A stretch of 55,383 bases of DNA from Gemmatimonadota bacterium. GTDB lineage: Bacteria; Orphanbacterota; Orphanbacteria; Orphanbacterales; Orphanbacteraceae. Positions 2,813 through 24,845 of the stretch are shown here, in pieces; position 1 is the first letter of the stretch, and the number at the start of each line of letters is the position of its first letter. The notes below the pieces were generated by a model that was not told the DNA's origin, made no database searches, and saw only the letters and a list, made by a program, of their open reading frames with translations. The stretch lies in assembly GCA_020061515.1 (NCBI GenBank), contig JAGUYC010000050.1, positions 1 through 55,383 on the forward strand, given 5' to 3'. The position numbers and the translations under genes were made by a program.

Positions 2813-3192
2813 GTCGAATCGACCTCCATTTGAGACATAAAGAACTTGCGGGCCGACGCGGAGACGGCCTTTCTTCCGTGCGAACAAGAAGAACGCAATC
2901 GGGCGGACAAACGCGAACGCACCCTCACCTCGCCCGGCCGGTTTGGGGAGGGAGCCGGCCGGAAGTCGGATCATGCGCGAACGGAGGGAGACTCACCGAA
3001 CGTTGGCTCAAATGATAACAGAAGATTCTCTAAGGAGAAAGCCCCTTCTTGCGGGGGCGCTCCTCACGAAAGGGCTCCCCTCAGAGAGCCGCCCGTAGAA
3101 CCCTATAACGCATTTCATTCCAATGGGTTATTGGCTTGCCCCCCCTTTCGATCTCCCCGGGCCTTGTCGACCCGCCCGGTCCCCCGCCCGGC

Positions 3193-4264: not shown

Positions 4265-6559
4265 TCAGGGGAGGAGCGTGATCGTGTACGTGCGCGTCGC
4301 CTCGTCGAGGCGGAATTCGTACGTGCCCGGTTCCAACTTGATCTTGCCGAGAGCGGCCGGCTCGCCGCCGCTCCCCTGGCAAATGCTCCCCGCGAGCGGA
4401 GTGGAGCAGGTGTTGTCCTCGGGGCCGCAGTTCCCATAATCGTTCGCGCCCCAATCGTTTCCCGTTCGGAACTTCATGAAGTGACAATTATCCGGGGGAC
4501 GCGCGGCGACGACGATCGTGTCGACCCAGAGACACGGCTGGATCTGCGTCATGCTCGGGATGCTCGTGTTCCACCCGTTGAAGTCTCCGACCGCGCGGAT
4601 GATCGTGAACTCCGACTGGCAGGTCACCTCGGTCAGCGTGACCGTGCCGAGGTTGGCGGTCGCTCCGTCGGCGACGCTTACGCCGGCGATCGTGGTGTCC
4701 CGGAAGCTCGCCCCCGTGAAGGCGACGTCGTAGACGCCGCCGTCCAGATCGTCCGCCGTGAAGGTCCCGAGATCGACGTCGACTCGAGCGGTCGCGGCGA
4801 GGAAGCCGCCGGCGCTCCTGGTCACCCGAACGTCGATCACGGGGAACGGAGGCTGCCGGCCGGTGTCGAACGCGACGCTCCCCACGATCCGCGCGCCGAA
4901 CTCCTCAATCGAAAGGACGCGGTATTGGAGCGAGTCTTCGTCGAGCGTCACCTGGAAGCGGCCGGCGTTCGGGACGGCGAACAACAAGTTCTGCCCGCTC
5001 GCCAAGAGGCAGATCGGCCGGTAGGTAACCAAGTCCTCCGTGATCAGCGTGTCGCAGCGCACGTAGTCCGGCGGGTTGTCGTACGCGCGGTCGGTCACGA
5101 ACTTGAACTGCACGATTCCCGGAAGGGAGATAGACGCCGGGAACACATCGATCGTGTCGATCCAGAGGCAGCTTCCGATCTTCTGCATTCCCGGGTCGGA
5201 CGTGAAGAGCCGCTCGTCCCACGCGTTGAACTCGCCGAGCATGTGGATCGTCGAGGCGACGCTGACGCACCCCGGCCGCATCGCGATTGTCCCGACCTCC
5301 GTCGTCTCGGCCGCCGCGACGGAGACGTTCGCGAGCGTCGTGTCGACGTATCTGCGCGCGCGGATCCCGATCTCCACGCTCCCCGCCGGCACGCCGTCCA
5401 GGACGAACCCGCCGTCGACCGCGCTCGAGGTCGTTTCCGCGAGCCGCACGAGGCTCGACGGATCCGTGTAGAAGATCGTCGCGACCGGAAGGACGCTCGG
5501 ATCGTCTTCGAACGCGATCGCGCCGGAAACCGCTCCCCCGCGGGCGAGCGTGATCGTTCCGAGGTCGATTTCCTCATCCGCAAGGAACTCGATGGAGAAG
5601 AGGATCGTGTCGACATAGCCCGCCGCGTGGAAGCGGAGATCGTAGGCGTCTTCGTTCAGCCCGGCGATCGAGAAGACGGTCGTCCCGGCCGGAATCATCG
5701 TCGTATCGACGGCGGCTCCGGTCGCATGGACCGAAACGATGATCCGCACTTCCGGCGTTTCCACGGGGCCGTCGCTGAAGGCCACGCGTCCCTGGAGCGC
5801 GCCGGTCAGGAGCACGCTCACCGCTCCGAGATCGACGCCCGCGTCCCCCGCCACGCGGACGTTTCGGATGTAGCGCACGGGGAAGGTCTCCGGATCGCCG
5901 GGGACTGAGAGGATGATCGTGTAGTTGCCTCGAGCAAGGTTCTCGATCGTGAAGCGCGTGCTGTCGACTCCGGTCGTGTCCCAGAGAGCCTCGTCTTTCG
6001 CGAGAACCCAGAAGTACCCCGGATCCGTGGATGCGTTCAGGAGGAATTGGTACGCTCCCGCCGAAGGGATCGACACTCGCAGGTTGTCTCCGTTCGTGTT
6101 CACCGTCGTTCCGCGCCGCGCGGCCTCATCGACGCCGCTCCCCCCCATCGCGTAACTCCCGTCCCAAGACCCGTTCGTGACGAACTTCCATTCGAACTGG
6201 TCGTCCGCGGCGAGCGGTTCCTCGCCGATCCAAAGACAGGGGAAGAGCTCGTTCATCCCAGGCGTCGACTCCCAGATTCCCGTATCCCACGCGACATTCT
6301 CTCCGGTCACATGGACCGACGTCGGCCCGCCCGTGCACGCGGGATTGTAGCCCGGAATCGCATAGACGACGGTGAGCGGGTAGGGCGGCCCCATCCCCCA
6401 ATCGAGCGTTCCCGTGATGATTCCCTCCGCGAGAGCGCCGCCCCCGGAAGGGTCGAGGAGCGTGTCGTTCGGATTGCCGCCGCAGCGCGCGAGGATCATC
6501 ATCGCCGCCGCCGCCACCAAGAGCGCTCCTCCGAGAATCGTCGTTCGTTTCTTCATCAT
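4265..6559 (-). CDS. Surface (lipo)protein with three CBM48-like glucan-binding modules interleaved with CarboxypepD_reg-like Ig domains
   Basis: The ORF track gives 4265..6790, but the Arg-rich first 77 aa look non-coding. MMKKRTTILGGALLVAAAAMMILARCGG at 6559 is a signal/lipoprotein-like N-terminus. Three repeats match the GxFNxW...KFxT pattern: VHVTGENVAWD..FEWKFVTNGSWDG, IHMLGEFNAWD..VQFKFVTDRAYDN, IRAVGDFNGWN..HFMKFRTGNDWGA. Confidence 0.75.
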   Translation of the reverse strand: MMKKRTTILGGALLVAAAAMMILARCGGNPNDTLLDPSGGGALAEGIITGTLDWGMGPPYPLTVVYAIPGYNPACTGGPTSVHVTGENVAWDTGIWESTPGMNELFPCLWIGEEPLAADDQFEWKFVTNGSWDGSYAMGGSGVDEAARRGTTVNTNGDNLRVSIPSAGAYQFLLNASTDPGYFWVLAKDEALWDTTGVDSTRFTIENLARGNYTIILSVPGDPETFPVRYIRNVRVAGDAGVDLGAVSVLLTGALQGRVAFSDGPVETPEVRIIVSVHATGAAVDTTMIPAGTTVFSIAGLNEDAYDLRFHAAGYVDTILFSIEFLADEEIDLGTITLARGGAVSGAIAFEDDPSVLPVATIFYTDPSSLVRLAETTSSAVDGGFVLDGVPAGSVEIGIRARRYVDTTLANVSVAAAETTEVGTIAMRPGCVSVASTIHMLGEFNAWDERLFTSDPGMQKIGSCLWIDTIDVFPASISLPGIVQFKFVTDRAYDNPPDYVRCDTLITEDLVTYRPICLLASGQNLLFAVPNAGRFQVTLDEDSLQYRVLSIEEFGARIVGSVAFDTGRQPPFPVIDVRVTRSAGGFLAATARVDVDLGTFTADDLDGGVYDVAFTGASFRDTTIAGVSVADGATANLGTVTLTEVTCQSEFTIIRAVGDFNGWNTSIPSMTQIQPCLWVDTIVVAARPPDNCHFMKFRTGNDWGANDYGNCGPEDNTCSTPLAGSICQGSGGEPAALGKIKLEPGTYEFRLDEATRTYTITLLP

Positions 6560-6573: not shown

Positions 6574-6987
6574 TCAATCGACAACGAGAAGGGAGTTGTA
6601 GCCCCCGTATCCGTCGTCCACGCGCTGGGGATTGTTCGGATCTTCCTTCCACGTTTTCTCGTCGACCACGAACTTGTACTGATAACGGCCGGGTGGGAGA
6701 TCGACGACGATCTGCCAGACGCCGTCGCCGTCCTCGTCGCTCATCAGGCCGATCAGGTAGCTTCCCGTCTGCGCTTGCCCGCGCAGCCAATCATTCTCCG
6801 GCCAGTTGCCGGCAAGCTGGACTCGCTGCGCCGACGGCGCTTCGAATTGGAAGAGGACCCCGCCTTCCGCGTGGTAAGGAGGCGGCAAGCGCCGCTTCAC
6901 GAAGTTCAGATTGACGCACGCGGCGGCGAAGAGAAGAACCGCCAGCAAGGCGATTCCGGCCGTGGAAGCGTGAAGTCCTCTTCTCAT
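6574..6987 (-). CDS. Small lipoprotein consisting of a single CBM48 (AMPK-beta glycogen-binding) module
   Basis: Internal ATG at 6987 gives MRRGLHASTAGIALLAVLLFAAAC (lipobox FAAAC), 10 nt after the stop of the upstream gene with GGAG/GAGG between. VQLAGNWPENDW...GRYQYKFVVDEKTWKEDPNNP is a clear CBM48 signature. The longer listed ORF 6574..7278 overlaps the upstream gene. Confidence 0.8.
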   Translation of the reverse strand: MRRGLHASTAGIALLAVLLFAAACVNLNFVKRRLPPPYHAEGGVLFQFEAPSAQRVQLAGNWPENDWLRGQAQTGSYLIGLMSDEDGDGVWQIVVDLPPGRYQYKFVVDEKTWKEDPNNPQRVDDGYGGYNSLLVVD

Positions 6988-6997
6988 CCTCGCACTC

Positions 6998-9181
6998 CTA
7001 GAAACGCACGATCGCTTCGACTTGGATTCGGCGTTCGTCCTCGAGGGCTTTCTCCGCGGCGGGAATCGACGAGGCGAGGGAACGGAAGTTGCGCCGCGCC
7101 GCGTCGCCGTTCGCGCCCCGCGCGAAGAGGAAGAGATCGCGCCCGACGGCGTCGAACTCGTTCGTCGTCTCGTCGACGATGAAGGGATCCACGCCGTAGG
7201 AGAGAGCGACCTCGATCCCTTTCGCGACCTCGTAGGCCACCTCCGCGAAGGTCGACCAGTACGAGCCGAAGAGACCAAGAACGGGATCCGTGTACTTCAC
7301 GAGCCGCGTGTCGGAATACAACCGGATCTTCTTCGACGGGTACCCTTTGAATTGGAAGAGGTTCTCCGTGTACTTCGGATCCCTGTTTAGATCGATTCCG
7401 GCGAACGTTCCTTTCCATGTAAACGAAACATCCTTCGGGGCGTACAGGACCGTCGAGAGCGCCGGCCGGACGAACGAGGCGTTCCTCCCGCCGACCAGGA
7501 CCATCCGGTCGACGGAGACCTCGTGCTCGCTCTGCTCGAGCCAGAAGTTCCGCTCGTCGAACCAGAACTGATTCCGCCACGGGGTGCGGGAGTCGTACCG
7601 GAAATCGTACGCCTCCACCTCGAGTCCGAGATCCCACTTCCTGCCGAACAACCGCTCCCATCCGCGCGCGGCGCCGAAACGGTAGACGCTCATCACGTTC
7701 TCGAGGGTGTCCCAAATCGACGTGGCGTAGTAGGTCTGCTCGTGCCCTTCCCGCTCGTACTCGGCGGAAAGCCGAAGCCCCGACCCCCCGAAACGGTACT
7801 CGCCGCCGAGGAAGACCCGCGTGGACCGGTCGATCTCGAACAGAGCGCCGGCCGCGGCGCGCTCGCCGGATGTCGTCGCGATCTCGGAGGTGTAGAGCGT
7901 GTCCCCGAAAACCTCGTCCACCTCGCGAACCGTGCGGAGCTCGACGTCCGCCTCGCGCCCCTCGATCGCCCGCACCGCGGCCCGCCCGTGAAGAATCTCC
8001 GCGCGCAGGACGTACGGCTTGGCCTCTCCTCCATAGAGGAGATCCCCGCCCGCGCCCCACCATCGCTCCCAGGTCTTCCCGAACTTCCTCTGGACGCCGA
8101 GCGTGCCGGTCGTGTCCTCCGGGTCGATCTCGACGATCGAGAGCGTCCCCGGGTTGTACCCGCGGTCCACGCGCGCGGAGACCCCGACGCGGAGATCGCT
8201 CACCGGATACTTGGCGCGGAGAGCGAGGATGTCCTTGTTGTTGTCGTCGTCGTAGGCTCTGTATGTGGCCCCCTCGTTCCTCTTGAACCGGAACGCCCCG
8301 CGCGCGCTATCGAACGCGGCTTCCTCCGTCGCGATGCTCAGGCTGTCGAGCACCGTCACCGTCGTCCCGCCGTTCTCGAAATCGTCCGCGTAGAGAACCG
8401 TGAGGCCGAGCGCTCCGAGCCCGAAGCTTCCGATCGCGCCTTGCTGGCGGAAGCCGAAATCGTGATCGTAGATTCCGATCCCGCCGACAAGCTCGAGAGG
8501 ATCGTCGAAGCGCCCCGCCGACTCATTGTCGAACATCTTAAGACTGAAGCTTTCGGTATGGAGGCGGAGCGACCCGCGGTCGAACCTCAGGTTCGTCTTC
8601 CAGAAATCGGTGACCGTCGCCTCGCCCTCGTTGTTGATCGAGGTGAGGAGATGAAGATCGAGATAGTCGTTCGCGCGAATCAGCCAGTCGAGATTCATGT
8701 CCATGTACGGCCGCTCGAGCTCCATGCGGCCGCCCCGGCTCTCGTTCTCCCGCGCGATGAAGCGGCTGATCATCCGCCCGCCGAGAAGGATCTTGGCCGA
8801 GTACGCCGTGTTCGCGGTCGCCGCCGCCGCCACGATCTTCCCGTCCGCTCCCACGTGGACGAGCGAGTTGCCGTACTCGCCGATCGTCACCGGATTCTCC
8901 GGGTCGGCGAACCACTGTCCGTCCACGACGAACTTGTACTCGTGCTTTCCGGATCCGAGAGGCACGACGACCGACCAGACGCCGTCGGGGCCCTTCGTCA
9001 TGGAGTTCGCCTGCGCGTTCCAATTGTTGAACGCCCCCGCCACGTACACGCTCCCCGCGTTCGGATCGGCATAGGTGAAGCGGATTCCACCCTCCACGGC
9101 CTCGACTCCGGCCTCCGCCCGGGAAAGCGCCGCGAGAAACGCGACGACGATACATGCCGTTCGTGCCATGTTTGACCTCAT
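6998..9181 (-). CDS. Outer-membrane beta-barrel protein with N-terminal CBM48 glycogen-binding module
   Basis: 727 aa with AAGGGGAG 8 nt upstream of the ATG. Signal peptide MRSNMARTACIVVAFLAALSRAEA. VYVAGAFNNWN...GKHEYKFVVDGQWFADPENP is a CBM48 module. The remaining ~600 aa have alternating-hydrophobic strand patterns and end in ...QVEAIVRF; a C-terminal Phe is typical of OMP barrels. Confidence 0.75.
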   Translation of the reverse strand: MRSNMARTACIVVAFLAALSRAEAGVEAVEGGIRFTYADPNAGSVYVAGAFNNWNAQANSMTKGPDGVWSVVVPLGSGKHEYKFVVDGQWFADPENPVTIGEYGNSLVHVGADGKIVAAAATANTAYSAKILLGGRMISRFIARENESRGGRMELERPYMDMNLDWLIRANDYLDLHLLTSINNEGEATVTDFWKTNLRFDRGSLRLHTESFSLKMFDNESAGRFDDPLELVGGIGIYDHDFGFRQQGAIGSFGLGALGLTVLYADDFENGGTTVTVLDSLSIATEEAAFDSARGAFRFKRNEGATYRAYDDDNNKDILALRAKYPVSDLRVGVSARVDRGYNPGTLSIVEIDPEDTTGTLGVQRKFGKTWERWWGAGGDLLYGGEAKPYVLRAEILHGRAAVRAIEGREADVELRTVREVDEVFGDTLYTSEIATTSGERAAAGALFEIDRSTRVFLGGEYRFGGSGLRLSAEYEREGHEQTYYATSIWDTLENVMSVYRFGAARGWERLFGRKWDLGLEVEAYDFRYDSRTPWRNQFWFDERNFWLEQSEHEVSVDRMVLVGGRNASFVRPALSTVLYAPKDVSFTWKGTFAGIDLNRDPKYTENLFQFKGYPSKKIRLYSDTRLVKYTDPVLGLFGSYWSTFAEVAYEVAKGIEVALSYGVDPFIVDETTNEFDAVGRDLFLFARGANGDAARRNFRSLASSIPAAEKALEDERRIQVEAIVRF

Positions 9182-9252: not shown

Positions 9253-10794
9253 CTAGAAGTTTCCTTTCATGATCAACCGAATCATGTCCTTATTGTCTGC
9301 GCCTCCGGCGAGATCTCCATCGTCGACCGGATTGTTCGAGTCGCCGATCCAGAAGGGACCGTACGAAAGGTACAAGTCCATATTTCTCTGCGGGCGGTAT
9401 TGGAGCTCGGTGAAGAGACCTTTGCGGAGCCTCGCCGGATCGTTCCCGAACGCGTAACGAGTGTACAGCTTGAGGTTCCCCGTCAGGTTCACCGCCGCCT
9501 CGAGCGAGACCAATTCCTTCTTGAGGTTCGTTTCCAGGTCCTTCAGCTTCCCCTGGACCCGCATCCACGCGAGGCGGCTCTCCACCTGAACCTCGCCGAA
9601 GAGATCGTAGTTCTTCGTCACGTCCTCGAAGAGCGGGTTGCTCGTGTCGACCGTCTTCCTCCGGTCGTACCAGAGCTTGCTCGTGAACCCGTTGACGTAC
9701 TCCGTGTAGACCTCGCCTCGCCAGCGCGTGAAGGTCTTCTTCTCGAAAACGTACTTCTCCCACTCCTCGTAGTCGAGGGTCAGCGTGATCGCGCGGCGCG
9801 GCAGGAGATACCAGCTGTTCACCTTCCATCCGACGAGATCGTTTGTGCTCTCGCCGAGGAAGCAGCTGAAGTCTGGCCCGAAATAGTAGTAGAGCGGCGC
9901 GATGTTGTAGTACCCGAGCGAAGGGGTCCCGAGCGTGATCGCTCGAATCTCGGCTTTCAACGCCGCGTTCCGGGGGAGCGCCGCGGAGAAACGATCGACC
10001 TCCCAATCGCCGAAGTGGAAACCGTCCTGGTCCGGCTTGTCGATTCCGATCTGTTTGCTGCTCGCGAACTCCAGGTAGAGATCCGTGTTCCCCAGCGTAG
10101 ACCGCGTGTCGAGCGCCCAGACCTCGTTGTAGTCGAGGTCCGACGCCGGCCCGATCACCTTTCGGTTGTAGGTCGCGCCGAGCCGGAAACGATCCATGAG
10201 GATCGGGCGCCATCTCAGGATGTGCGCGTCGTCGGTTGGGGAGGGCGCCGTGCCCCCGCCGACGCGGGATTGGCTGGAGAAATCGCTTAAGATGTAGGTA
10301 AAAACATCCGCCCAATTCTCCGTCTTGAGGTTGAAGCGGAACCCCTGCGCGTTGTCTCCGTCCTTCACCTGATGGGGCTGGACCACTTGAATGAGATGGT
10401 TCTCCACCCAGAAGCGGTCCTGCCGCGAGAAGAGATAGACCTCGGCGATCGATTTCTTGCCGCGGGGGAGGGTGACCGGCGTGTGAAAGCGCGCGTGGCT
10501 CTCCCGATACTGGAAGAGCGGCCGCTCGTTTTCGTTCCCCCCCGTGTACCAATCCGCCTCGAACTTCACGAACGTCTCGACGCCCGTGCGGGGCTGGGAA
10601 AAGATCCGGAACTGGCTCGCCGCGTACGTGTCGTTGTTGTTCGATTCGAAGTCCCACGGGAAGAAGCGGTCCTGCTTTCGGATGTCGAGCTGGAGCTGGT
10701 ACTCCCCCTCGATCACCGTGGCCGCGTCGGCGGAAAAGGGCGAGGCTCCGAGGAGCCCCGCGAGCAAGACCGAGAGCGCGACGGTCCCTCTCAT
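9253..10794 (-). CDS. Outer-membrane beta-barrel protein, paralogous to the barrel part of 6998..9181
   Basis: Internal ATG at 10794 gives MRGTVALSVLLAGLLGASPFSADA (signal peptide) and overlaps the upstream stop as ATGA (10791-10794). C-terminus ...LSYGPFW...MIRLIMKGNF resembles ...LSYGVDPF...EAIVRF of the neighbouring barrel. The listed start at 11043 lies inside the upstream gene. Confidence 0.65.
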   Translation of the reverse strand: MRGTVALSVLLAGLLGASPFSADAATVIEGEYQLQLDIRKQDRFFPWDFESNNNDTYAASQFRIFSQPRTGVETFVKFEADWYTGGNENERPLFQYRESHARFHTPVTLPRGKKSIAEVYLFSRQDRFWVENHLIQVVQPHQVKDGDNAQGFRFNLKTENWADVFTYILSDFSSQSRVGGGTAPSPTDDAHILRWRPILMDRFRLGATYNRKVIGPASDLDYNEVWALDTRSTLGNTDLYLEFASSKQIGIDKPDQDGFHFGDWEVDRFSAALPRNAALKAEIRAITLGTPSLGYYNIAPLYYYFGPDFSCFLGESTNDLVGWKVNSWYLLPRRAITLTLDYEEWEKYVFEKKTFTRWRGEVYTEYVNGFTSKLWYDRRKTVDTSNPLFEDVTKNYDLFGEVQVESRLAWMRVQGKLKDLETNLKKELVSLEAAVNLTGNLKLYTRYAFGNDPARLRKGLFTELQYRPQRNMDLYLSYGPFWIGDSNNPVDDGDLAGGADNKDMIRLIMKGNF

Positions 10795-11681
10795 CGCTCT
10801 CCCCCGATCGGGACGGTGATCGACGCCGTGTACGAGACGCCGAGCGTCTTGTGCGTCGCGAACCCCGCGTCGAAGAACCAAGACCCCGTGAGGACCCCGA
10901 ACCCGCCCCAGTACTCGTGGTCGAAGATCCCGCTCCGGAGGGCGAAGACATCGAAGAAGAGGACCTCGCCGCCGATCGCGGGGGAAAGGTCGCCTCTTCG
11001 GTTCGTTGCGAAGCCCCCGGAGACAAGGGAAGCTTCGTTCCATAGATAAGTGATTGAACCCTCAACCTCCGCTTCCATCCGCGTCCCTCCCCCCCCCCCA
11101 ACGAACTCGAACGCGGGCACTCCCACGTTTCGAAGGATCGCTCCGATGCGAAGGTCGCCGCGAGGCCGAACGATCGCCCCGACATCCGCGGCGAGCTTCG
11201 TCTGCGAGCCGTAATCGACCTTCTCCAGAGTTTCGAAATCGCGGAAGTCCGAGTAGCCGACGCGGAAGACCTTTCCCGTGATCCCGATCCCAAGCTCGCC
11301 GAGCATTGGAATCGAGGTCTGCCGGCCTGCGGAGAGGAAGAAGAGATCCTCGGAGACCACGCCCGCGAGTGACGTGCGGTGCCAGCCGACGCCCGCGGTT
11401 CCGAATGCAGGCGGAAGGGGAAGCGCGAAGGCGGCGAAGTTGATCGAGAGGTCCTCGACGACGTAGGGCCGGTTGTGCGCGAGAAGCACGGCCGCGCGCC
11501 TCTGCCAGGCAAGGCCGGCCGGGTTCCAATAGACCGCCGCCGGATCGTCCGCGAGCGCGTGGAACGTCTTCGCCATCGCGACCGCCCGCGCGCCCGTCTC
11601 GAGCCGATCGAAATACGCGCCGCCGGCCGAAGGGACGAAAAAGGCGAGAAGAAGCGCGAGAAATCCGGCCTTTCTCGTCAT
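10791..11681 (-). CDS. PorV/PorQ-like (FadL-fold) outer-membrane protein
   Basis: Internal ATG at 11681 gives MTRKAGFLALLLAFFVPSAGGA and overlaps the upstream stop as ATGA (11678-11681). The N-terminal motif GARAVAMAKTFHALADDPAAVYWNPAGLA matches, as I remember it, the GARxxGMGGAFxAVADDxSAxYWNPAGL signature of PorV/PorQ/UPF0164-type barrels. Confidence 0.55.
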   Translation of the reverse strand: MTRKAGFLALLLAFFVPSAGGAYFDRLETGARAVAMAKTFHALADDPAAVYWNPAGLAWQRRAAVLLAHNRPYVVEDLSINFAAFALPLPPAFGTAGVGWHRTSLAGVVSEDLFFLSAGRQTSIPMLGELGIGITGKVFRVGYSDFRDFETLEKVDYGSQTKLAADVGAIVRPRGDLRIGAILRNVGVPAFEFVGGGGGTRMEAEVEGSITYLWNEASLVSGGFATNRRGDLSPAIGGEVLFFDVFALRSGIFDHEYWGGFGVLTGSWFFDAGFATHKTLGVSYTASITVPIGGER

Positions 11682-12967
11682 CGAACCACCGAGAACGCCT
11701 TCGTGGTCCGGAAAACACCCGGCTCCACGACGAAGCGGAGAAGATAGATGCCGCCGGGGACGAAGCGCCCACTCTCGTCGCGGCCGTCCCACCAATCCAG
11801 AGCCGGATTCTGCGGGGCGACCACCGGCCGCACGTCCTCGCGGAAGAGAAGACGCACGCGCTCGCCCTTCAAACTGTAGATCTCCGCGCTGACGGTGATG
11901 CCGCGGAAGAAGTCGGTCGTGTCAGGCTCCGGAGAGAGCGTGAAGTCGAAACGGAGAAGACGCCCCTCCTCGGGCGAGACGATCGGATCGCGGAACGTGA
12001 GCGTGCTGAACGAGAAGTTCTTCGGGGTGACCGGCGGATCCACGAAGAACGCGCGCCGGCTCGTGACGCCGACGCCGATGTCGGCCAGGCTGTCGGGAGG
12101 CAGGGTATCGACCACGCTCTCCTCCCAGACGAACACCTTCCGTCCGTCTCCCGTGACGTAGGATGTATCATCGAGCGGAAGGATCGCGAAGTTGTCGATG
12201 GTCACCTGGTTCGAGGACTCGATCGTGTGTCCGCCCAGATTGTCGGGCGCCGAGTCGGGGCCGCCCGTGCCGTCCGCCCCGGCCGTGAGGATCGCCACGA
12301 CCCGGATCGACCGGACCTCGTCGAGCCCGTTCGGAAGAACGTAGACCGAATCTCGCTGGGTCGGATCCCAGCGGCGCTCGAGCGTCTCTCCGTAGAAGAC
12401 CGGCCAAGGGATCCGCGCCTCCATCGATCGCCCGGTGTTCCCTTGGGCGAAGGTCGCGACCGTCTCGAAGAGGGAGATATCGACCTGAGTCACCTGGTTC
12501 TCGCGCGCGAAACGCCAGAGCTGCGGGGTTGTGTTTCCGTCCCACGTGGCCAGGAAAAGATCGGGGAAAAGATTTCCCGCGAACACGAAGTTCCGGCGCC
12601 ACGAGTTCAGCTCCGTCATCTTGTCGAGACCGCCGGGGCGATAGTCGAAAAGAAGAATGATGTTGTTGTCCCAAGCGATCCCATCGACCGCGACGTATAA
12701 ATTGTCGCTGTCCCAAGTGACCTTGATCTGGTTGATGTCGTTATTGAAGCCCCACTTCGAGTCGTTGTCCCTCTCCTGGGCCACGACCTCGAGAACGCCG
12801 TCTCCGTTCACGTCGATGAGGGTGTCCACGAAGACGACCTCGTCCGCCTCGAAGTCGTTCGAGTAGCCGTCGATGGCAATGCGGTTCGTAAGATCCGCGC
12901 CCGTGGTCGCGAGGGCCGGAAGAACGAGCGATGCAGAAAGGAAGAGCGTAGCGGTGACTCGCCGCAT
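11678..12967 (-). CDS. Surface protein: CBM9/DOMON-like sugar-binding module plus FlgD-Ig/T9SS-type C-terminal domain
   Basis: Signal peptide MRRVTATLFLSASLVLPALA from ATG 12967; ATG 13048 is an alternative start and neither has a good SD. IDGYSNDFE...IKVTWDSDNLYVAVDG...EARIPWPVFYG is a module shared with 15900..19907 and 27393..29438. The C-terminus AEIYSLKGERVRLLF...WDGRDESGRFVPGGIYLLRF is a CTD-like fold signature. Confidence 0.65.
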   Translation of the reverse strand: MRRVTATLFLSASLVLPALATTGADLTNRIAIDGYSNDFEADEVVFVDTLIDVNGDGVLEVVAQERDNDSKWGFNNDINQIKVTWDSDNLYVAVDGIAWDNNIILLFDYRPGGLDKMTELNSWRRNFVFAGNLFPDLFLATWDGNTTPQLWRFARENQVTQVDISLFETVATFAQGNTGRSMEARIPWPVFYGETLERRWDPTQRDSVYVLPNGLDEVRSIRVVAILTAGADGTGGPDSAPDNLGGHTIESSNQVTIDNFAILPLDDTSYVTGDGRKVFVWEESVVDTLPPDSLADIGVGVTSRRAFFVDPPVTPKNFSFSTLTFRDPIVSPEEGRLLRFDFTLSPEPDTTDFFRGITVSAEIYSLKGERVRLLFREDVRPVVAPQNPALDWWDGRDESGRFVPGGIYLLRFVVEPGVFRTTKAFSVVR

Positions 12968-13120: not shown

Positions 13121-15781
13121 ATGCGACACCGAACCTCCCTGCTCGCTTTCCTTGTTCTCCTCGCAGGAACTTTCGAGGCCCGCGCGGAGACCGCCGTTCT
13201 CTTCCGCTACGACGCCGGCGAGCCCGGCCGGCGGGTCTTCGTCGCGGGCGAATGGAATCGATGGGACCCTTCCGCCGACCCGATGCTCGACGCCGACGGA
13301 GACGGGATCTACGAGAAGACGATCGCGCTCCCTCCGGGTCGGCACGAATACAAGTTCGTCGTGGACGGCGTTTGGATCGAGGATCCGAACGCGAGCGAAT
13401 CGGTCCCGAACCCGTACGGCTCGTCGAACTCGGTCGTGTACGCCGGAGCCGCTCCGGAACCCGGCGTCTATCGGATCGCCGCCCGCGGCGCGGAGACGCC
13501 GGCCGCGGAGATCCGCGAGGTGCTCTTCTCGTTCCGGCCCGACCGAACCCCTCGGGCCGTCTTCCTCGCCGGAACCTTCAACGATTGGAAGCCGGACGCT
13601 CAAGCGATGGACGGCCCGGACGCCGAAGGGCGCTTCCGCGTCCGCCTTGCGCTCCCTCCCGGCGAGTACCAGTACAAGTTCGTCACCGACGGCTCCTGGT
13701 ATCACGACCCGGCGAACGAGAAGACGACCGACGACGGCTTCGGCGGCTTCAACTCGATCCTCGTCGTGGACGACCGCTTCCACGCGATCCCGCTCCGCGC
13801 GGGGGATGGTAGCATTTGGGAGGGGACGCTCTCTCTCGCGCCGGACCACGTGAGCGCGGTGCGCACCGAGGCCGGGCGCGTCGTCGTGACCGCCCGCGCC
13901 CATCAGGGCGACGTCACCGGTGCGGAGATCCTCTTTCGACGGGGAGGTTCCGAGAGCCGGGTTCCCATGCGCGCGCTCGGAGGAGACGGCCGCTACATCT
14001 ACTTTCGAGGGGAGCTGGACGCCGGCCCCGGCGTCGAGGGGCGCATCGGCATCGTTCTCGCCGACGGGGATTCATCGCGCATCGTGACGCGCTCCGGGCT
14101 CGCCAGAGAAGCGAGCGACGCCCAGCTTCTCGAGATCAACGCGATCGGAACCCCTCTCTTCTCCATCCCCGATTGGGTGGTCGACGGAGTTTTCTATCAG
14201 ATCTTTCCCGAGCGCTTCCACAACGGGAACAAGAAGAACGATCCCGATTTCCGCGAACCGTACTACGCGGGGAAGACGACGCTGCCCGAAGGGGGGAAGA
14301 CCAACAGCGAGCACTACCACCTCGTGAAGGACTGGCACGATGTTTCCGGTCTGTCCAAGAGTCCCCACCGGACCGACGGCCGACCCGACTACTTCTCGTT
14401 CTACGGGGGAGACCTCGAGGGGGTGCTCGAAAAACTCCCCTATCTAAAAGATCTCGGCGTCACCATTCTTTACTTCAATCCTCTCCACACGGGGAAATCG
14501 AACCACAAGTACGACGCGTGCAACTATCGCGAGACGGATCCCCATTTCGGAGGGAACAAGGCTTTCCGAAAGCTCGCCGACGCCGCCCACGAGGCGGGGA
14601 TGCGGATCGTCGTCGACGGCGTCTTCAACCACACGGGGAACTGCCACTACGCGTTCGTGGACTGTGTGGAGAAGGGGAAGGACTCGCCCTATTGGCTCTG
14701 GTACGAGTGGAGGAAGTGGCCGCTCCCCGAGACGTTCGGGGAGGGAGAGAAGGCGAGCGATTACTACGACTGCTGGTGGGGACACGGCGATCTTCCCAAC
14801 TTGAACTTCGATCTCTCGCGGCCGAACGCCACCGAGCAGGCGGCGACACGGATCTCGGAGGCGATGCCGAACGAACCGGTTCTCGAGGAGATTCGGGCGG
14901 CGGTCCGCTTCTGGCTGGAAGAGATGAACGCCGACGGGTTCCGGCTCGACGTGGCGAACGAAGTGCCGGCTTGGGTGTGGAGGATCTTTCGGGAAGAGGC
15001 GCGGCGGGTGAAGCCAGACGGCTTCGTGATCGCCGAGCTCTGGGGAAGCGCCGCGGCCGATCTCTCGCCGCTCCGCTTCGACGCCACGATGAACTACCGC
15101 TACTTCCGGGATCCATGCCTGGCCTTCTTCGCCCGAAGCAACATCGATGCGTCGGTTTTCGATCGGCAGCTTGCCGGCGGACGGTTCGGCTATCCGCTCC
15201 CCTCCGTTCTCGGGGCGATGAACCTCCTCGGCTCGCACGACACGGAGCGCTTCCTCACGCTCGCCGGAGGCGACACGCGGCGTCTTCTTCTCGCGTCGCT
15301 CTTCGCGGCCACCTACGTCGGCGTCCCTCACATCTATTACGGAGACGAGATCGGTATGGAGGGCGGACCCGATCCCGACTGCCGCCGCCCCTTCGAATGG
15401 AAGACGCTCGAGACCCCGCGCGGCACGGCGATCCGCGAGCGCGTGCGCGACTATCTCGCGATCCGGCGGGATCATCCCGCGCTTCGGCGCGGAGAGTTCC
15501 GCACGCTTCTCGCCGAGGGGAAGGTCTACGCATACGCGCGGTGGACCGATGAGGAGAGGCTCGCGGTCTTCCTGAACGCAGGCGGCGCGCCCGTGACGGT
15601 GATCCTGGAGCCCGAGGCTCTCCCCTTCGAGTCGGGGAGCTCGTTCGATCTCTTCGCGGGGCGCGAGACGGCGATCGAGGAGGGCCTCTTTCGGATCTCG
15701 CTCGAACCGTTTTCCGGAACGATCCTTCGGTTCCCGAAGAGCGAGAGCGAGCCCGCGCCTGTTGATTCGCAATCTCAATAA
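13121..15781 (+). CDS. Secreted GH13 alpha-amylase-family enzyme (neopullulanase/cyclomaltodextrinase-like) with two N-terminal CBM48 modules
   Basis: AAGGAG 6 nt upstream of the ATG and signal peptide MRHRTSLLAFLVLLAGTFEARA. CBM48 modules: VFVAGEWNRWD..GRHEYKFVVDGVWIEDPNA and VFLAGTFNDWK..GEYQYKFVTDGSWYHDPAN. GH13 regions I-IV: DGVFNHTG, GFRLDVANEV, VIAELWG, LLGSHDTERF; also VFYQIFPERF. Confidence 0.9.
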   Translation: MRHRTSLLAFLVLLAGTFEARAETAVLFRYDAGEPGRRVFVAGEWNRWDPSADPMLDADGDGIYEKTIALPPGRHEYKFVVDGVWIEDPNASESVPNPYGSSNSVVYAGAAPEPGVYRIAARGAETPAAEIREVLFSFRPDRTPRAVFLAGTFNDWKPDAQAMDGPDAEGRFRVRLALPPGEYQYKFVTDGSWYHDPANEKTTDDGFGGFNSILVVDDRFHAIPLRAGDGSIWEGTLSLAPDHVSAVRTEAGRVVVTARAHQGDVTGAEILFRRGGSESRVPMRALGGDGRYIYFRGELDAGPGVEGRIGIVLADGDSSRIVTRSGLAREASDAQLLEINAIGTPLFSIPDWVVDGVFYQIFPERFHNGNKKNDPDFREPYYAGKTTLPEGGKTNSEHYHLVKDWHDVSGLSKSPHRTDGRPDYFSFYGGDLEGVLEKLPYLKDLGVTILYFNPLHTGKSNHKYDACNYRETDPHFGGNKAFRKLADAAHEAGMRIVVDGVFNHTGNCHYAFVDCVEKGKDSPYWLWYEWRKWPLPETFGEGEKASDYYDCWWGHGDLPNLNFDLSRPNATEQAATRISEAMPNEPVLEEIRAAVRFWLEEMNADGFRLDVANEVPAWVWRIFREEARRVKPDGFVIAELWGSAAADLSPLRFDATMNYRYFRDPCLAFFARSNIDASVFDRQLAGGRFGYPLPSVLGAMNLLGSHDTERFLTLAGGDTRRLLLASLFAATYVGVPHIYYGDEIGMEGGPDPDCRRPFEWKTLETPRGTAIRERVRDYLAIRRDHPALRRGEFRTLLAEGKVYAYARWTDEERLAVFLNAGGAPVTVILEPEALPFESGSSFDLFAGRETAIEEGLFRISLEPFSGTILRFPKSESEPAPVDSQSQ

Positions 15782-15899
15782 TGGTATAATCCTCGAGAGA
15801 TTCGGGAGATACGGTCTTCTCTTCGGCGCTCGCGGCGGGATGAGAAGGCTCCCTCCCGCTTGCCGCTCCCCGAACGTTCGTCCGAAAAGGAGAAAGCTC

Positions 15900-18800
15900 A
15901 TGCGTTTCGCGCACGTCGCCGCGTACGGTCTTCTGGCCGTCTCTCTCGCGATCCCCTTCCCCCTTTTCGCAGCGCCGTCCTCCCCCGCGCCCGCGCCGGG
16001 GATCGACGCCGCGGGCGATCCGACCGCCTACGGTCCCGAACACGCGAAGGCGCTCGCGCCCGTTTACGACACGGCAAGGCCCGGGGCGCGCGCGGCCGAC
16101 CTCATGGCCTTCTACTACGACCAGAACGTCGATCGCCTTGCGTTCCGCGTTCAGCTCTTCGACATCGGATCGTCCGACGAAACCGTCAACCGCATGAAAG
16201 ATTCGAACACGAAGATCTACATCGCCCTCGACTACACCGACGGAGGGACGCGCGCGCTTCCCGACGGGATTCGCGGCGAGGCGCCTATTCTCTGGGACCG
16301 CGTGCTTCGCATCGGATACGATGAAGCCGGCGCGCTCCGAGGCACCTTGCTCGACCCCTCGTTCGGCGGGGGAGAGACGGACCGCGTGAGGCGCGTTCAC
16401 GTTTCGCTCCGGCACGACATGGTTGAGGGCTCGATCCATCTTCCCGGCGGTTTCGAGGAGGCGGCGATCCGCGCCGCGGGGAAGAGCGGAGCCGTATACG
16501 AAGAGATCGCCGAGGCGGCCGCCGCGGGCGATCGGACGCCGGTCCGCTTCTACGTCTTCACCGCGCAAGGGAACGAGCTTCAGGACGCGATCGAGGCGGA
16601 CAACGCCTCGCGCCCCGGCGACCACAACGTCGCCTTCATGGTGCACGGCAATCAGGGACTCACCTGGACGTCGGTGTTTTACGGGGAGCGCGGCGAGAAC
16701 GCGTCCTACCCGGGCGATCCGAACAACCCGGACGACGGATTCGACGAAATCCTCGATTGCCACCGCTACTACGACATTCCGCTCAACATCCACCTCGCCG
16801 GACAGCTTCAGACGAGCGCCGAGTGGCACAACCCCGAGTTCAACGACTCGATCGCCTCGGCGGTCGCCCAGGGATGGGGAGACATCATCACCTCCGCATA
16901 CGCGCAGCACATGATGCCCTTCGTGCACAACAACATGAACGATTGGGCGGTGCACATCGAGAAAGTGATGTCGGACTGGCGCTACGGGGACACGGCGGTC
17001 GTCGCGTGGGTTCCCGAGCGCGTGTGGCTCGAGAACCCGGACAACGACGGGAACGGCATCACGGCGAGCGGAGGCGTCGTCGACAACACGCTTCTCGACA
17101 ACTGGATGAACCACGGCGTGCGCGCGGTGCTCCTCGACGACTACATCCATCTCGACTACTACAACGACTGGGCGAACGACCGCCACGTCTACGTTCATTC
17201 CAACGGCCTCAAGTTCATCCCGATGGACGGCGACTTCGTCGGCGCGATGGACAACGACTGGGGCAGCGCGTGGAACATGATCGTGAACCTCTCCTCCGAC
17301 GAGATCCTCGTCTACGGAAACGACTGGGAGATCCCGGCGGAGGTGAGCCAGGGCGCCTGGAACCAGTACGCGCTGAACAACTGGATCCACGTGATCCGCC
17401 AGTGCTGGCTGAACAGCGGGACGGTCGCCGTCTGGAAGCTCTCCGACGTCATTCACCACGGTCCGTTCATCTCCGGAATCTCGAACCCAACGATCCAGAA
17501 CGGGACCTACGGCCTTCTCGGCGGCAAGTGGGGATACGGCGGCGGCAACAACTCGTGGTACATCCATTGGGCGGGATACAGCGATCCGGCGCACGTGTGG
17601 GATTTCCACACGCCGACGTGGAACTACGGAACCATCTGGACCAACGCGTACAACACGATCATGGCGAGCCCTGCGAACGACCTTTCCGAAACCGCGTGGT
17701 ACGTGATGATGACCAACCTTCACGAGACCGGTTGGCACGACGAAGGCGAGATCAGCGGCTGGATCTACCGCTACTCGAACAAGATCAAGAACGCGAACGT
17801 CTACGCCGAGGCGGCGCGCTGGGCGAACGGCGACTACGCGAGCGCGACCGGGGCCTATCTTTCGGACATCGATCAAGACGGACAGGTCGAGGGGGTCATC
17901 CACAACGACAAGCTCTTCGCGGTGATCGAGCCGATCGGCGGGCGCATCGTCCATCTCTTCGCCCAGGAGACGGGCGACGAGTACTCGGTCATCGGGAACT
18001 GCAACGTCTACTGGACGGATACCGAAGGAGATTACAACGAGGGGAACCACGTCGGCGGCCTCTCGGACGTCAGCGTCGCCGGCCTCGACCGCGAGCACGA
18101 TCTCTACACGATCTCGGTGGTCGCCGGCTCGGGGAACAAGGTCGCGCTCGATCTCGTCCATGCGAATGTGACCAAGCGGCTGAACCTCGAGCTCGGCAAG
18201 AAGTATCTCGACGTCGTGTACGACGCCGCGGGGCAGGACGTCTACGTGAAGAGCGGCTTCTCCCCCGACCTTCTCGACCTCATCTGGAACGCGCGTTCCG
18301 ACCGCGTGTGGGCGGCGACGCCGGTCTCGGGGGCCTACTTCGGCCAGCGGAACCCGAACTCGGGTGCGACGGCGGCGATCGTGGTCGGCAACGGCGGCGC
18401 GCGCCACAACCTGCAGTACAACTCAACGCTCATGGGCGTGGAGGAGCTCTTCGGAAGCGGCCAGTTCGAGATGTACCTCTTCGCGGGCGAAACGGCGGCG
18501 CCCGACGGCCAGGGGAACATCGCCGAGCTGCAGACCTTGGCGAGCGCGCTCTCCGACACGCTGAAGCCGCGCGCCGTCTCCGCGACCTACTTCCCGACGC
18601 CGGACCGCATCTCGATTCTCTTCAACGAGAAGGTGAAGTACGACCAGGTCGTCGTGGCCGGCTTCAAGGTGGACGACGACGACGACGGCATCGCGGATGT
18701 AACCTTCTCCTCCGGTTGCACGGTCGTCACGACGAGTAACAGCGTGCGGATCGACATCGCCCTCGACGCTGCGACCGCCTCCGCCATCGAGGGCCTGAAT

Positions 18801-24844: not shown

Positions 24845-24845
24845 G

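What the first reader, a model, noticed from the sequence alone, without database searches (positions are those of the whole stretch)
6998..9181. Glycogen-binding module fused directly to a large outer-membrane beta-barrel, with an unfused paralogous barrel next door
Seen: after a signal peptide the 727-aa protein has a textbook CBM48 module (VYVAGAFNNWN…GKHEYKFVVDGQWFADPENP). About 600 aa of barrel-like sequence follow, ending in …EAIVRF. The neighbouring gene 9253..10794 encodes a 513-aa protein with a similar C-terminal region (…LSYGPFW…KGNF) but no CBM. Inference: a CBM tethered to a porin-like barrel would place the substrate-binding module at the uptake channel. I do not know of a characterised CBM48-porin fusion.
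Basis: partly seen in the sequence, partly recalled or inferred. Interest (0 to 1): 0.7.

Follow-up and report, generated by a model that had tools for sequence, protein, structure and literature searches.

The report
Starch-binding module fused to outer-membrane barrel
An uncultured bacterial phylum (Eisenbacteria) always joins a starch/glycogen-binding module to a large, unannotated outer-membrane barrel inside a fixed starch-utilisation operon, which points to a so far undescribed way of taking up alpha-glucans across the outer membrane.

Summary
It encodes 727 aa: a signal peptide, a bona fide CBM48 whose AMPK-type sugar-binding residues are conserved, a conserved 18-aa linker, and about 600 aa that AlphaFold2 models with high confidence as a roughly 22-stranded outer-membrane barrel matching no Pfam or NCBIfam family.

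The fusion is not an artefact. 76 of 80 complete barrel-family representatives carry an N-terminal starch-binding module; the other four look N-terminally truncated. Distant members carry two or three CBM48s or two CBM20s.

The 513-aa neighbour is also a barrel (about 24 strands, no CBM). It is a separate family (hhalign probability 11.6%), so paralogy is not supported.

Both sit in an invariant Eisenbacteria operon: CTD protein, PorV/PorQ-like barrel, 24-strand barrel, CBM48-barrel, and a previously unnoticed 137-aa CBM48 lipoprotein. A neopullulanase-type GH13, a GH57-like CTD protein and a MalK-type ABC importer lie nearby.

Best reading: a plug-less alpha-glucan uptake channel with a tethered CBM. 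Strand parity puts the tether at the periplasmic rim. Whether the CBM stays periplasmic or threads outward is unresolved. No description was found in the literature.

The parts
9110..9181 (-). Signal peptide of the CBM48-barrel protein (residues 1-24, cleavage after AEA).
   Evidence: Translation. AF2 models an N-terminal helix at residues 2-18.
8846..9109 (-). CBM48 / AMPK-type alpha-glucan-binding module (residues 25-112).
   Evidence: Pfam AMPK1_CBM 3.3e-14 and CBM_48 1.9e-10. PDB AMPK beta CBM about 1e-12, with W54, K83, W90 and N105 aligned to the FNNW, YKF, GQW and NN motifs. W54 and K83 are invariant, W90 and N105 at least 90% conserved, in 79 homologues. This is the most conserved segment of the protein.
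8792..8845 (-). Conserved 18-residue tether (residues 113-130) with motif DGxLVAxxATSNT[AP]YS[PA]K.
   Evidence: Length is 18 in nearly all homologues (range 18-25) and conservation is 0.68. Per-column counts. AF2 pLDDT is only 57 for residues 121-130.
7001..8791 (-). Roughly 22-stranded outer-membrane beta-barrel (residues 131-727) with a C-terminal Phe beta-signal. Stop codon at 6998-7000.
   Evidence: AF2 mean pLDDT 89.4, pTM 0.79, with the DSSP strand pattern. Foldseek against PDB gave 412 hits at E<=1e-3; the listed top 50 are all outer-membrane barrels (TonB-dependent transporters, AlgE, FimD). Ten short, length-invariant turns alternate with eleven long or variable loops. No Pfam family in 12 diverse members.
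7484..7597 (-). Loop L8 (residues 529-566): aromatic-rich and highly conserved (Y529, W535, W540, F541, W547). Candidate lumen constriction or 'greasy slide'.
   Evidence: Conservation 0.70, 7 aromatic residues, ordered coil with pLDDT 88-97. Its position in the lumen is inferred, not seen.
7031..7195 (-). Loop L11 (residues 663-717): a conserved three-helix insert between the penultimate and last strands.
   Evidence: DSSP helices at 680-687, 692-697 and 699-715, with pLDDT 89-96. Conservation 0.68 and length 55-61 across the family.
9253..10794 (-). Neighbouring 513-aa barrel (about 24 strands, no CBM); a separate unannotated family.
   Evidence: AF2 pLDDT 92.5, pTM 0.83. Among the best Foldseek hits by E-value, and the best by TM-score (0.38-0.51), are the PapC/FimD 24-strand usher barrels. 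More than 120 homologues, none with a Pfam domain. Found immediately upstream of the CBM48-barrel in 37/37 loci.
6574..6987 (-). 137-aa lipoprotein made of a lipobox, a conserved basic tether (C-VNLNFVKRRLPPP) and a CBM48.
   Evidence: Translation. Pfam AMPK1_CBM 5.3e-9. Present directly downstream in 38/38 loci. Tether motif C-[SG]-x-L-x-F-[IV]-K-[RK]-R-L-P-P-P conserved.
10791..11681 (-). 296-aa PorV/PorQ-family (FadL-like) outer-membrane protein. ATGA overlaps with both neighbouring genes.
   Evidence: NCBIfam PorV_fam 1.9e-12, below the curated cut-off. Pfam Toluene_X 0.007. Present in 33/33 loci.
11678..12967 (-). 429-aa secreted protein (g1): a domain shared with the 1381-aa protein plus a C-terminal FlgD_ig-type T9SS-like sorting domain.
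   Evidence: BLASTP 3e-11 to residues 1076-1268 of the 1381-aa protein. Its C-terminal ~70 aa match CTDs of other window proteins (3.7e-7). Present in 32/32 loci.
4265..6559 (-). 764-aa lipoprotein with CarboxypepD_reg domains. Three starch-binding-like repeats seen by eye.
   Evidence: Translation. Pfam CarboxypepD_reg 7.9e-13. Orthologues hit the CBM48 HMM. An acid-rich tether follows the lipid Cys in several orthologues.
13121..15781 (+). Divergently transcribed GH13 neopullulanase/cyclomaltodextrinase-type enzyme with two N-terminal CBM48/X25 modules. Sec signal only.
   Evidence: Pfam Alpha-amylase 2.2e-55 and AMPK1_CBM 4.9e-28. PDB TVA II/neopullulanase about 1e-107. Signal peptide.
15762..19907 (+). 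1381-aa protein with a T9SS-type C-terminal domain and a sub-threshold GH57 region. Candidate cell-surface amylase.
   Evidence: FlgD_ig 7.1e-8 and Glyco_hydro_57 1.2e-3 at residues 333-425. PDB GH57 entry 1k1w, 1.1e-3, on the same region.
23133..27265 (-). Sugar ABC importer: two permeases, a solute-binding protein and a MalK-type ATPase.
   Evidence: Pfam BPD_transp_1 twice, SBP_bac_1/8, and ABC_tran + OB_MalK + TOBE_2. MalK or SBP lies within 10 kb in 19/23 fully flanked loci.

Best explanation
The 727-aa protein is the outer-membrane core of a phylum-specific (Candidatus Eisenbacteria/Eiseniibacteriota) alpha-glucan utilisation apparatus. It is a plug-less, roughly 22-stranded beta-barrel. 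Its lumen is most likely narrowed by three conserved, ordered loops (L3, the aromatic-rich L8 and the helical L11), and it serves as the passage for malto-oligosaccharides or alpha-glucan chains. A functional CBM48 is permanently tethered to strand 1 by a conserved 18-residue linker.

Shown:
- The CBM48 and its conserved sugar-binding residues.
- The high-confidence barrel prediction.
- The obligate fusion.
- The invariant operon with a second (about 24-strand) barrel, a PorV/PorQ-like barrel, a CTD protein and a CBM48 lipoprotein.
- Linkage to a GH13 enzyme, a GH57-like enzyme and a MalK-type ABC importer.

Inferred:
- Starch or glycogen is bound and cut at the cell surface by CTD-anchored proteins (the 1381-aa GH57-like protein and g1).
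- The products slide through the barrel.
- The tether emerges on the periplasmic rim, so the CBM48 sits at the channel exit. There it captures the emerging chain, biases movement inward (ratchet or sink), and hands the chain to the CBM48-bearing neopullulanase, the CBM48 lipoprotein and the MalE-like binding protein.

I put about 0.85 on 'outer-membrane alpha-glucan uptake component'. Within that, roughly 50:40:10 for a periplasmic CBM, a surface-exposed CBM, and an in-lumen CBM.
For: - CBM48 identity and conserved binding residues.
- AF2 pLDDT 89.4 with 22 inferred strands; Foldseek hits only outer-membrane barrels, with 22-strand TonB-dependent transporters on top.
- Ten turns of 2-5 residues with near-constant length alternate with long or variable loops, and the chain ends in a C-terminal ...VRF. 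This places the N-terminus of strand 1 on the turn (periplasmic) side.
- The CBM, linker, L3, L8 and L11 are the most conserved segments; L8 carries four invariant aromatic residues (Y529, W535, W540, W547).
- The fusion is present in 76/80 complete family representatives, and the four exceptions look N-terminally truncated.
- Distant members carry 2-3 CBM48 or 2 CBM20 modules instead. Starch binding as such is therefore what is selected.
- Invariant synteny in 38 species-level genomes: 37/37, 33/33, 32/32 and 38/38.
- ATGA or 1-nt start/stop overlaps (and window coordinates).
- Distant loci keep the trio of 24-strand barrel, CBM-barrel and CBM lipoprotein next to GH57, GDE_C and an ABC importer.
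- The GH13 is neopullulanase-type with only a Sec signal, whereas proteins with a T9SS-type CTD exist in the same locus. CBM48 modules may therefore also act in the periplasm.
- The CBM48 lipoprotein has a basic, non-LES-like tether, unlike the acidic tethers of many 764-aa-type lipoproteins. The LES rule is taken from Bacteroidota (PMC6222051).
Against: - There is no experimental evidence of any kind; the phylum is uncultured.
- I could not inspect model coordinates or PAE. Barrel closure, the position of L3/L8/L11 in the lumen, and the CBM's position are all inferred from the DSSP string, loop statistics and Foldseek matches.
- TM-scores to known barrels are low (0.3-0.5).
- Tandem CBM48/CBM20 arms are typical of proteins that grip polymeric starch, which is more intuitive outside the cell.
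- The fixed-length, conserved linker could equally be a lumen-threading segment.
- The GH13 could be exported by a type II system that leaves no sequence mark.
- The lipoprotein sorting rule is extrapolated from another phylum.
- The roles of the 24-strand barrel and the PorV-like barrel are unknown, so the true channel could be the neighbour or a hetero-complex.
Confidence: 0.5

Rival explanations
1. Same uptake channel, but the CBM48 is surface-exposed. The 18-residue conserved linker would run back through the barrel lumen, in an autotransporter-like order of signal peptide, passenger, linker and barrel. The CBM would then capture starch or glycogen at the channel mouth.
For: - The domain order is formally that of a type Va autotransporter.
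- The linker has fixed length and a conserved motif, as expected for a segment held in a defined path.
- The N-terminal third of the barrel has short strands (7-11 residues), so 18 residues could span it.
- Relatives carry tandem CBM48 or CBM20 arms, as extracellular starch-binding proteins do.
- The substrate polymer is extracellular.
Against: - There is no homology to autotransporter barrels, and no helix is predicted in the linker.
- All known N-terminal passengers use 12- or 16-strand type V barrels. N-terminal domains of all other outer-membrane barrel classes are periplasmic (established knowledge: SusC N-terminal extension, FecA, LptD, BamA, PapC, ScrY).
- In this organism, surface proteins visibly use a T9SS-type CTD, which this protein lacks.
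Confidence: 0.3
2. The barrel is not a conduit but a membrane anchor or scaffold. It would hold a CBM48, and through partner proteins the whole amylolytic complex, at the outer membrane. Transport would go through the neighbouring 24-strand barrel or elsewhere.
For: - Tight operon coupling with two other barrels, a CTD protein and CBM lipoproteins suggests a multi-protein complex.
- About 120 ordered loop residues could fully occlude the lumen.
Against: - A 22-strand barrel is far larger than an anchor needs to be (8-12 strands suffice).
- The conserved aromatic-rich loop (L8) is more typical of sugar channels.
- The barrel is conserved along its length across the phylum.
Confidence: 0.1
3. 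A transporter like a TonB-dependent one, with the CBM48 as a plug. The CBM48 plus linker would sit inside the 22-strand barrel in place of the canonical plug, binding substrate and gating the pore.
For: - The barrel has 22 strands and an N-terminal globular domain directly before strand 1.
- The best Foldseek hits are TonB-dependent transporters.
- The pTM of 0.79 is compatible with a partly fixed CBM.
Against: - No Plug or TonB_dep_Rec match even at E<=1, and no recognisable TonB box.
- Relatives carry two or three tandem CBMs, which cannot all fit in a lumen.
- The linker has low pLDDT.
- L3, L8 and L11 already supply a plug-sized mass.
Confidence: 0.06
4. An AlgE-like exporter for a self-made alpha-glucan or exopolysaccharide, with the CBM48 guiding the nascent chain.
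For: AlgE is among the Foldseek hits. One homologue of the neighbouring barrel is named 'Alginate export domain' by UniRef.
Against: - No glycosyltransferase, synthase or Wza/Wzc-type genes in the window or in 38 related loci.
- The conserved partners are hydrolases and a binding-protein-dependent importer.
- No Alginate_exp match.
Confidence: 0.03

Closest known systems
Sugar-specific diffusion channels: maltoporin LamB, ScrY, CymA
   Same: An outer-membrane barrel without a plug, encoded with amylases and a MalEFGK-type importer. It has conserved aromatic residues in an ordered internal loop, comparable to a 'greasy slide'. ScrY also carries an N-terminal periplasmic extension that has been proposed to bind sugar.
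   Different: No sequence homology (no Pfam LamB or porin match). About 22 strands instead of 18 or 14. A folded CBM48 is covalently attached. It is obligatorily paired with a second, roughly 24-strand barrel and a CBM48 lipoprotein.
SusC/SusD and other TonB-dependent glycan transporters (B. thetaiotaomicron Sus; Caulobacter MalA)
   Same: Barrel size of 22 strands and an N-terminal beta-sandwich domain ahead of the barrel. The locus logic is similar: glycan-binding lipoproteins (like SusE/F), a surface enzyme (like SusG) and a neopullulanase (like SusA). The host belongs to the FCB-group lineage.
   Different: No plug domain, no TonB box and no SusD-like lid. The N-terminal domain is a true CBM rather than a CarboxypepD_reg-like extension.
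CBM48 / AMPK beta-subunit glycogen-binding module (also in GlgB, GlgX, pullulanases)
   Same: The same fold family by Pfam and PDB sequence match. The Trp, Lys, Trp and Asn sugar-binding residues are conserved.
   Different: Known CBM48s are appended to enzymes or kinase scaffolds, not to membrane barrels.
Type Va autotransporters
   Same: The linear order: signal peptide, N-terminal globular domain, linker, C-terminal barrel ending in Phe.
   Different: Autotransporters have a 12-strand barrel with an alpha-helical linker and belong to a single homologous family (PF03797). Neither feature is present here.
LptD/LptE and the T9SS pair PorQ-PorZ (barrel plus lipoprotein or CTD partner)
   Same: A large barrel is encoded next to a small lipoprotein with a strictly conserved tether. 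A PorV/PorQ-family barrel is encoded next to a CTD-bearing protein.
   Different: No homology to LptD or LptE. The PorV-family match is below the curated cut-off. The cargo and context are amylolytic.

Membership tests
CBM48 (Pfam PF02922 / PF16561 AMPK1_CBM) | Profile match above the curated gathering score. | tested here: met
   AMPK1_CBM 53.3 bits (cut-off 26.8) and CBM_48 41.4 bits (cut-off 22.4).
CBM48 (Pfam PF02922 / PF16561 AMPK1_CBM) | Conserved carbohydrate-contact residues (AMPK beta W100, K126, W133, N150; numbering from memory). | tested here: met
   W54, K83, W90 and N105 align to the FNNW, YKF, GQW and NN motifs of AMPK beta2. They are invariant or at least 90% conserved in 79 homologues. 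Actual binding was not tested.
Outer-membrane beta-barrel protein (BAM substrate) | Sec signal peptide, antiparallel strands with short periplasmic turns, and a C-terminal aromatic beta-signal. | tested here: met
   Signal peptide. DSSP pattern with pLDDT 89.4. Turn and loop statistics. F727 conserved in at least 90% of homologues. Foldseek hits only outer-membrane barrels. Barrel closure itself could not be inspected.
TonB-dependent transporter (including SusC-like) | N-terminal plug domain (PF07715) and TonB_dep_Rec barrel profile. | tested here: not met
   No such match at E<=1 for the window protein, nor at E<=0.1 in 12 diverse members.
TonB-dependent transporter (including SusC-like) | 22-strand barrel. 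| tested here: inconclusive
   I count 22 strands from the DSSP string, and the top Foldseek hits are TonB-dependent transporters, but TM-scores are only 0.25-0.37.
TonB-dependent transporter (including SusC-like) | TonB box and dependence on TonB/ExbBD. | not testable with these tools
   No canonical TonB box was seen. The linker motif DGxLVA is only a vague resemblance.
Maltoporin/LamB family (PF02264) | LamB profile match; 18-strand trimeric barrel. | tested here: not met
   No match. About 22 strands.
AlgE / Alginate_exp (PF13372) | Profile match; 18-strand barrel within an exopolysaccharide synthesis operon. | tested here: not met
   No profile match for either barrel. No synthase genes in the locus.
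Type Va autotransporter (PF03797) | 12-strand beta-domain profile and a helical linker in the pore. | tested here: not met
   No match. No helix predicted in residues 111-130.
Bacteroidota-type polysaccharide utilisation locus | Adjacent SusC-like and SusD-like gene pair. | tested here: not met
   No SusC or SusD family hit among the window gene products scanned.
Paralogy of the two adjacent barrels | Significant profile-profile similarity over the barrel. | tested here: not met
   hhalign probability 11.6% over 49 columns only. BLASTP E 0.007 over 33 aa.

The most novel reading that the evidence does not exclude
The CBM48-barrel, the 24-strand partner barrel and the CBM48 lipoprotein together form a third kind of outer-membrane glycan importer, distinct from diffusion porins and from TonB-dependent SusCD-type transporters. 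In this reading, long alpha-glucan chains are threaded through a plug-less large barrel and pulled inward without TonB energy. The pull comes from a Brownian ratchet of CBM48 modules tethered at the periplasmic exit: one fused to the barrel and one supplied as a lipoprotein for the unfused barrel.
Probability: 0.18. Interest if true: 0.9.

Novelty: new variant of a known kind. Interest (0 to 1): 0.66.

Why it matters
Uptake of glycans across the outer membrane is currently explained by two paradigms: passive sugar porins such as LamB, and TonB-dependent transporters such as SusCD. A 2026 review of bacterial glycoside transporters, searched only for a few terms, mentions only these routes at the passages retrieved and returned no CBM-fused barrel (PMC13543919).

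Here a whole uncultured phylum uses something different in its starch loci. Two unannotated large barrels are always encoded together. One is always fused to a starch-binding module, and a CBM48 lipoprotein with a strictly conserved tether is always encoded next to them.

If the barrel is a channel, this is the first case of a CBM built into an outer-membrane conduit. It would offer a simple, testable model for how substrate binding can be coupled to translocation without TonB. It would also give functional names to two sizeable 'hypothetical' protein families and a marker operon for alpha-glucan use by Eisenbacteria in soils, sediments and sludge.

Tried and rejected
1. Frameshift or assembly artefact: rejected. 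More than 80 full-length homologues and 38 genomes keep the fusion.
2. The neighbour as a paralogue or 'unfused form': rejected by BLASTP and hhalign. No unfused member of the CBM-barrel family was found in 1.84 billion representatives; the four apparent cases look N-truncated.
3. Sequence homology of either barrel to solved structures or curated families: none found.
4. Mean-field DCA on 124 non-redundant sequences (Neff about 93), to find CBM-barrel or linker-lumen contacts: the top pairs were gap and indel artefacts, so it was uninformative.
5. Access to model coordinates from the sandbox: not available. Strand count and topology therefore rest on the DSSP string.
6. Promoter and terminator scan of 3900-13300: nothing above shuffled expectation.
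7. Literature searches (Eisenbacteria + starch; CBM48 + outer membrane + beta-barrel; AMPK1_CBM + outer membrane; glycogen-binding domain + porin): no description of this protein or operon.
8. The weak NCBIfam hit 'T9SS_plug' on the CBM region (E 0.051): dismissed as a generic beta-sandwich match.
Full report
**1. Observation**

The ORF at 6998..9181 is real but lies on the minus strand. It encodes 727 aa. The protein starts with a Sec signal peptide (MRSNMARTACIVVAFLAALSRAEA|G) and ends in ...EAIVRF. A GGGGAG ribosome-binding site lies 8-9 nt upstream.

- Residues 28-106 match Pfam AMPK1_CBM (E 3.3e-14) and CBM_48 (E 1.9e-10), both well above the gathering scores.
- They also match crystal structures of the AMPK beta glycogen-binding module (E about 1e-12).
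- In that alignment W54, K83, W90 and N105 fall on the FNNW, YKF, GQW and NN motifs that contact sugar in AMPK beta. W54 and K83 are invariant, and W90 and N105 at least 90% conserved, in 79 homologues.
- Residues 118-727 match nothing in Pfam or NCBIfam, and nothing in the PDB by sequence.

**2. The fusion is real and obligate**

A database search returned more than 80 full-length homologues at 33-94% identity. All carry the CBM48 plus the ~600-aa C-terminal part, and where they are named at all they are called only 'glycogen-binding domain-containing protein'.

A barrel-only profile (A3) searched against 1.84 billion cluster representatives found 241 families at E<=1e-3. Of the 80 with a complete barrel, 76 carry at least one CBM48 upstream. 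The other four begin inside the barrel profile; three of them start with V instead of M and the fourth lacks a signal peptide, so they look N-terminally truncated.

More distant members have two or three CBM48 modules, and one has two CBM20 modules. A starch-binding arm as such is therefore what is conserved. No unfused version of this barrel family was found.

**3. Predicted structure and topology**

AlphaFold2 on the 79-sequence alignment gave mean pLDDT 89.4 and pTM 0.79. Foldseek against the PDB gave 412 hits at E<=1e-3. The listed top 50 are all outer-membrane barrels: 22-strand TonB-dependent transporters first, then AlgE and FimD. TM-scores are only 0.25-0.47, so the resemblance is at the level of fold class and not of family.

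I had no access to the coordinates, so I derived the topology from the DSSP string and the family alignment.

- Ten turns of 2-5 residues, nearly invariant in length, alternate with eleven long or length-variable loops.
- With the C-terminal Phe strand, this gives 22 strands, and strand 1 starts on the short-turn (periplasmic) side.
- The CBM (conservation 0.74), the fixed-length 18-aa linker (0.68; motif DGxLVAxxATSNT[AP]YS[PA]K), L3 (0.69), L8 (0.70) and L11 (0.68) are the most conserved segments. L8 carries invariant Y529, W535, W540 and W547. L11 contains three helices.
- L3, L8 and L11 together hold about 120 ordered non-strand residues. That is comparable to a plug in size, and I infer that they constrict the lumen.

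**4. The neighbour**

The gene at 9253..10794 (minus strand) encodes a 513-aa protein with a signal peptide, a C-terminal ...GNF and no CBM.

- AF2 gives pLDDT 92.5. I count about 24 strands.
- The 24-strand PapC/FimD usher barrels are among the best Foldseek hits by E-value and give the highest TM-scores (0.38-0.51).
- It has more than 120 homologues, none with a Pfam domain.

Similarity to the CBM48-barrel is confined to the last two strands and a 'SYG[VP]' motif: BLASTP E 0.007, and hhalign probability 11.6% over 49 columns. It is a second, separate barrel family and not a demonstrable paralogue.

**5. Operon**

It encodes a 137-aa lipoprotein consisting of a lipobox, the tether C-VNLNFVKRRLPPP and a CBM48 (AMPK1_CBM E 5.3e-9).

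The gene order on the minus strand is:

| Gene | Coordinates | Product |
|---|---|---|
| g1 | 12967..11678 | 429 aa; C-terminal FlgD_ig-type sorting domain |
| PorV/PorQ-family barrel | 11681..10791 | 296 aa |
| 24-strand barrel | 10794..9253 | 513 aa |
| CBM48-barrel | 9181..6998 | 727 aa |
| CBM48 lipoprotein | 6987..6574 | 137 aa |
| CarboxypepD_reg lipoprotein | 6559..4265 | 764 aa |

The first three genes overlap by ATGA. The later spacers are 71, 10 and 14 nt.

A scan of one genome per species found 38 loci. Nearly all are labelled Candidatus Eisenbacteria/Eiseniibacteriota, and a few are labelled Gemmatimonadota or just 'bacterium'. My own ORF and HMM analysis shows the same order wherever enough flank exists:

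- 24-strand barrel: 37/37
- PorV-like barrel: 33/33
- g1: 32/32
- CBM48 lipoprotein: 38/38
- GH13: 17/23
- MalK or SBP within 10 kb: 19/23

In three independently gene-called loci, the stop of the 24-strand barrel gene overlaps the start of the CBM48-barrel gene. Two distant relatives keep the trio of 24-strand barrel, CBM-barrel and CBM lipoprotein. One of them lies beside a GH57 gene with CBM48, a GDE_C gene and an ABC importer.

**6. Wider locus**

- Divergently transcribed is a GH13 of the neopullulanase/TVA II/cyclomaltodextrinase type. It has two CBM48/X25 modules and only a Sec signal.
- It is followed by a 1381-aa protein with a T9SS-type C-terminal domain. Two concordant sub-threshold GH57 hits fall on residues 328-425 of this protein.
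- A MalK-type ABC importer lies about 10 kb away.
- No synthase or glycosyltransferase genes are linked.

**7. Mechanism**

The evidence fits an alpha-glucan utilisation system whose outer-membrane core is this cassette. I commit to the CBM48-barrel being a plug-less uptake conduit with a tethered glycan-binding module. The side of the membrane on which the CBM sits is the main open point.

*For a periplasmic CBM:*
- Strand parity places the tether at the periplasmic rim.
- Every class of outer-membrane barrel with an N-terminal domain keeps that domain periplasmic, except type V secretion (established knowledge).
- Surface proteins in this organism visibly use a CTD.
- The CTD-less neopullulanase also carries CBM48s.
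- The CBM48 lipoprotein has a basic tether, unlike the acidic, LES-like tethers of many 764-aa-type lipoproteins (the LES rule is taken from Bacteroidota, PMC6222051).

*For an external CBM:*
- The substrate is an extracellular polymer.
- Relatives carry tandem CBM arms.
- The fixed-length conserved linker could thread the low side of the barrel.

I estimate about 50:40:10 for periplasmic, surface and in-lumen placement. If the CBM is periplasmic, it would act as an exit-side sink or ratchet that hands chains to the neopullulanase and the binding protein.

**8. Comparison with known systems**

- It works most like maltoporin, ScrY or CymA (plug-less sugar channels). It fails membership of those families: no profile match and a different strand number.
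- It resembles SusC in barrel size, in having an N-terminal beta-sandwich, and in locus logic. It lacks the plug, the TonB box and SusD.
- It has the linear order of an autotransporter, but neither the 12-strand barrel nor the helical linker.
- The CBM is a true CBM48.

Searches of open-access literature found no description of a CBM-fused outer-membrane barrel or of this operon.

**9. Verdict and caveats**

Everything functional is inference from sequence, predicted structure and synteny in an uncultured phylum. Barrel closure and loop placement were not inspected directly. DCA at this alignment depth was uninformative.

Noticed in passing
window 6574..6987 (-): An unlisted 137-aa CBM48 lipoprotein sits directly downstream of the target. 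The tether after the lipid Cys (C-[SG]-x-L-x-F-[IV]-K-[RK]-R-L-P-P-P) is almost invariant across the 38 loci. This suggests it docks into a partner, possibly the CBM-less 24-strand barrel.
   Followed up: partly
window 10791..12967 (-): g1 (429 aa) carries a FlgD_ig-type T9SS-like C-terminal domain and a domain shared with the 1381-aa protein. It is translationally coupled by ATGA overlap to a PorV/PorQ-family barrel. The pair resembles the PorZ-PorQ cargo-anchor pair of type IX secretion.
   Followed up: partly
window 15762..19907 (+): A 1381-aa protein with a T9SS C-terminal domain has two independent sub-threshold GH57 hits on residues 328-425 (Pfam 1.2e-3; PDB 1k1w 1.1e-3). It is probably a divergent cell-surface GH57 amylase and is otherwise unannotated.
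   Followed up: partly
related proteins P0344, P0293, P0323, P0340, P0354: Distant members of the barrel family carry two CBM20 modules, or two or three CBM48 modules, in place of a single CBM48. The starch-binding arm has been swapped and multiplied at the same position.
   Followed up: partly
window 4265..6559 (-), and orthologues in L001-L041: The downstream lipoproteins fall into classes by the tether after the lipid Cys: acid-rich (CGDN.., CDDAPD.., CDESEEN..), basic (C..LNF[IV]KRR) and CAGGWRGG. This may reflect different sorting to the two faces of the outer membrane.
   Followed up: partly
window 42280..46473 (-): A 1397-aa protein has PPDK_N and PEP-utilizers mobile domains only in its last ~450 residues, and about 950 unannotated N-terminal residues. 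It lies next to a divergent GAPDH-like gene (40974..42443).
   Followed up: no
window 31974..35159 (-): A 1061-aa single-chain fusion joins NuoF-like modules (Complex1_51K, NADH_4Fe-4S, SLBB) with GltD-like modules (Fer4_20, Pyr_redox_2). It sits beside a 2Fe-2S thioredoxin-like protein and a glutamate-synthase-domain protein.
   Followed up: no
window 2..about 2830 (-): A long secreted-protein gene runs off the left end of the window, so it is absent from the ORF list. The long + strand ORF at 107..2833 is its antisense shadow, as judged by GC3.
   Followed up: partly
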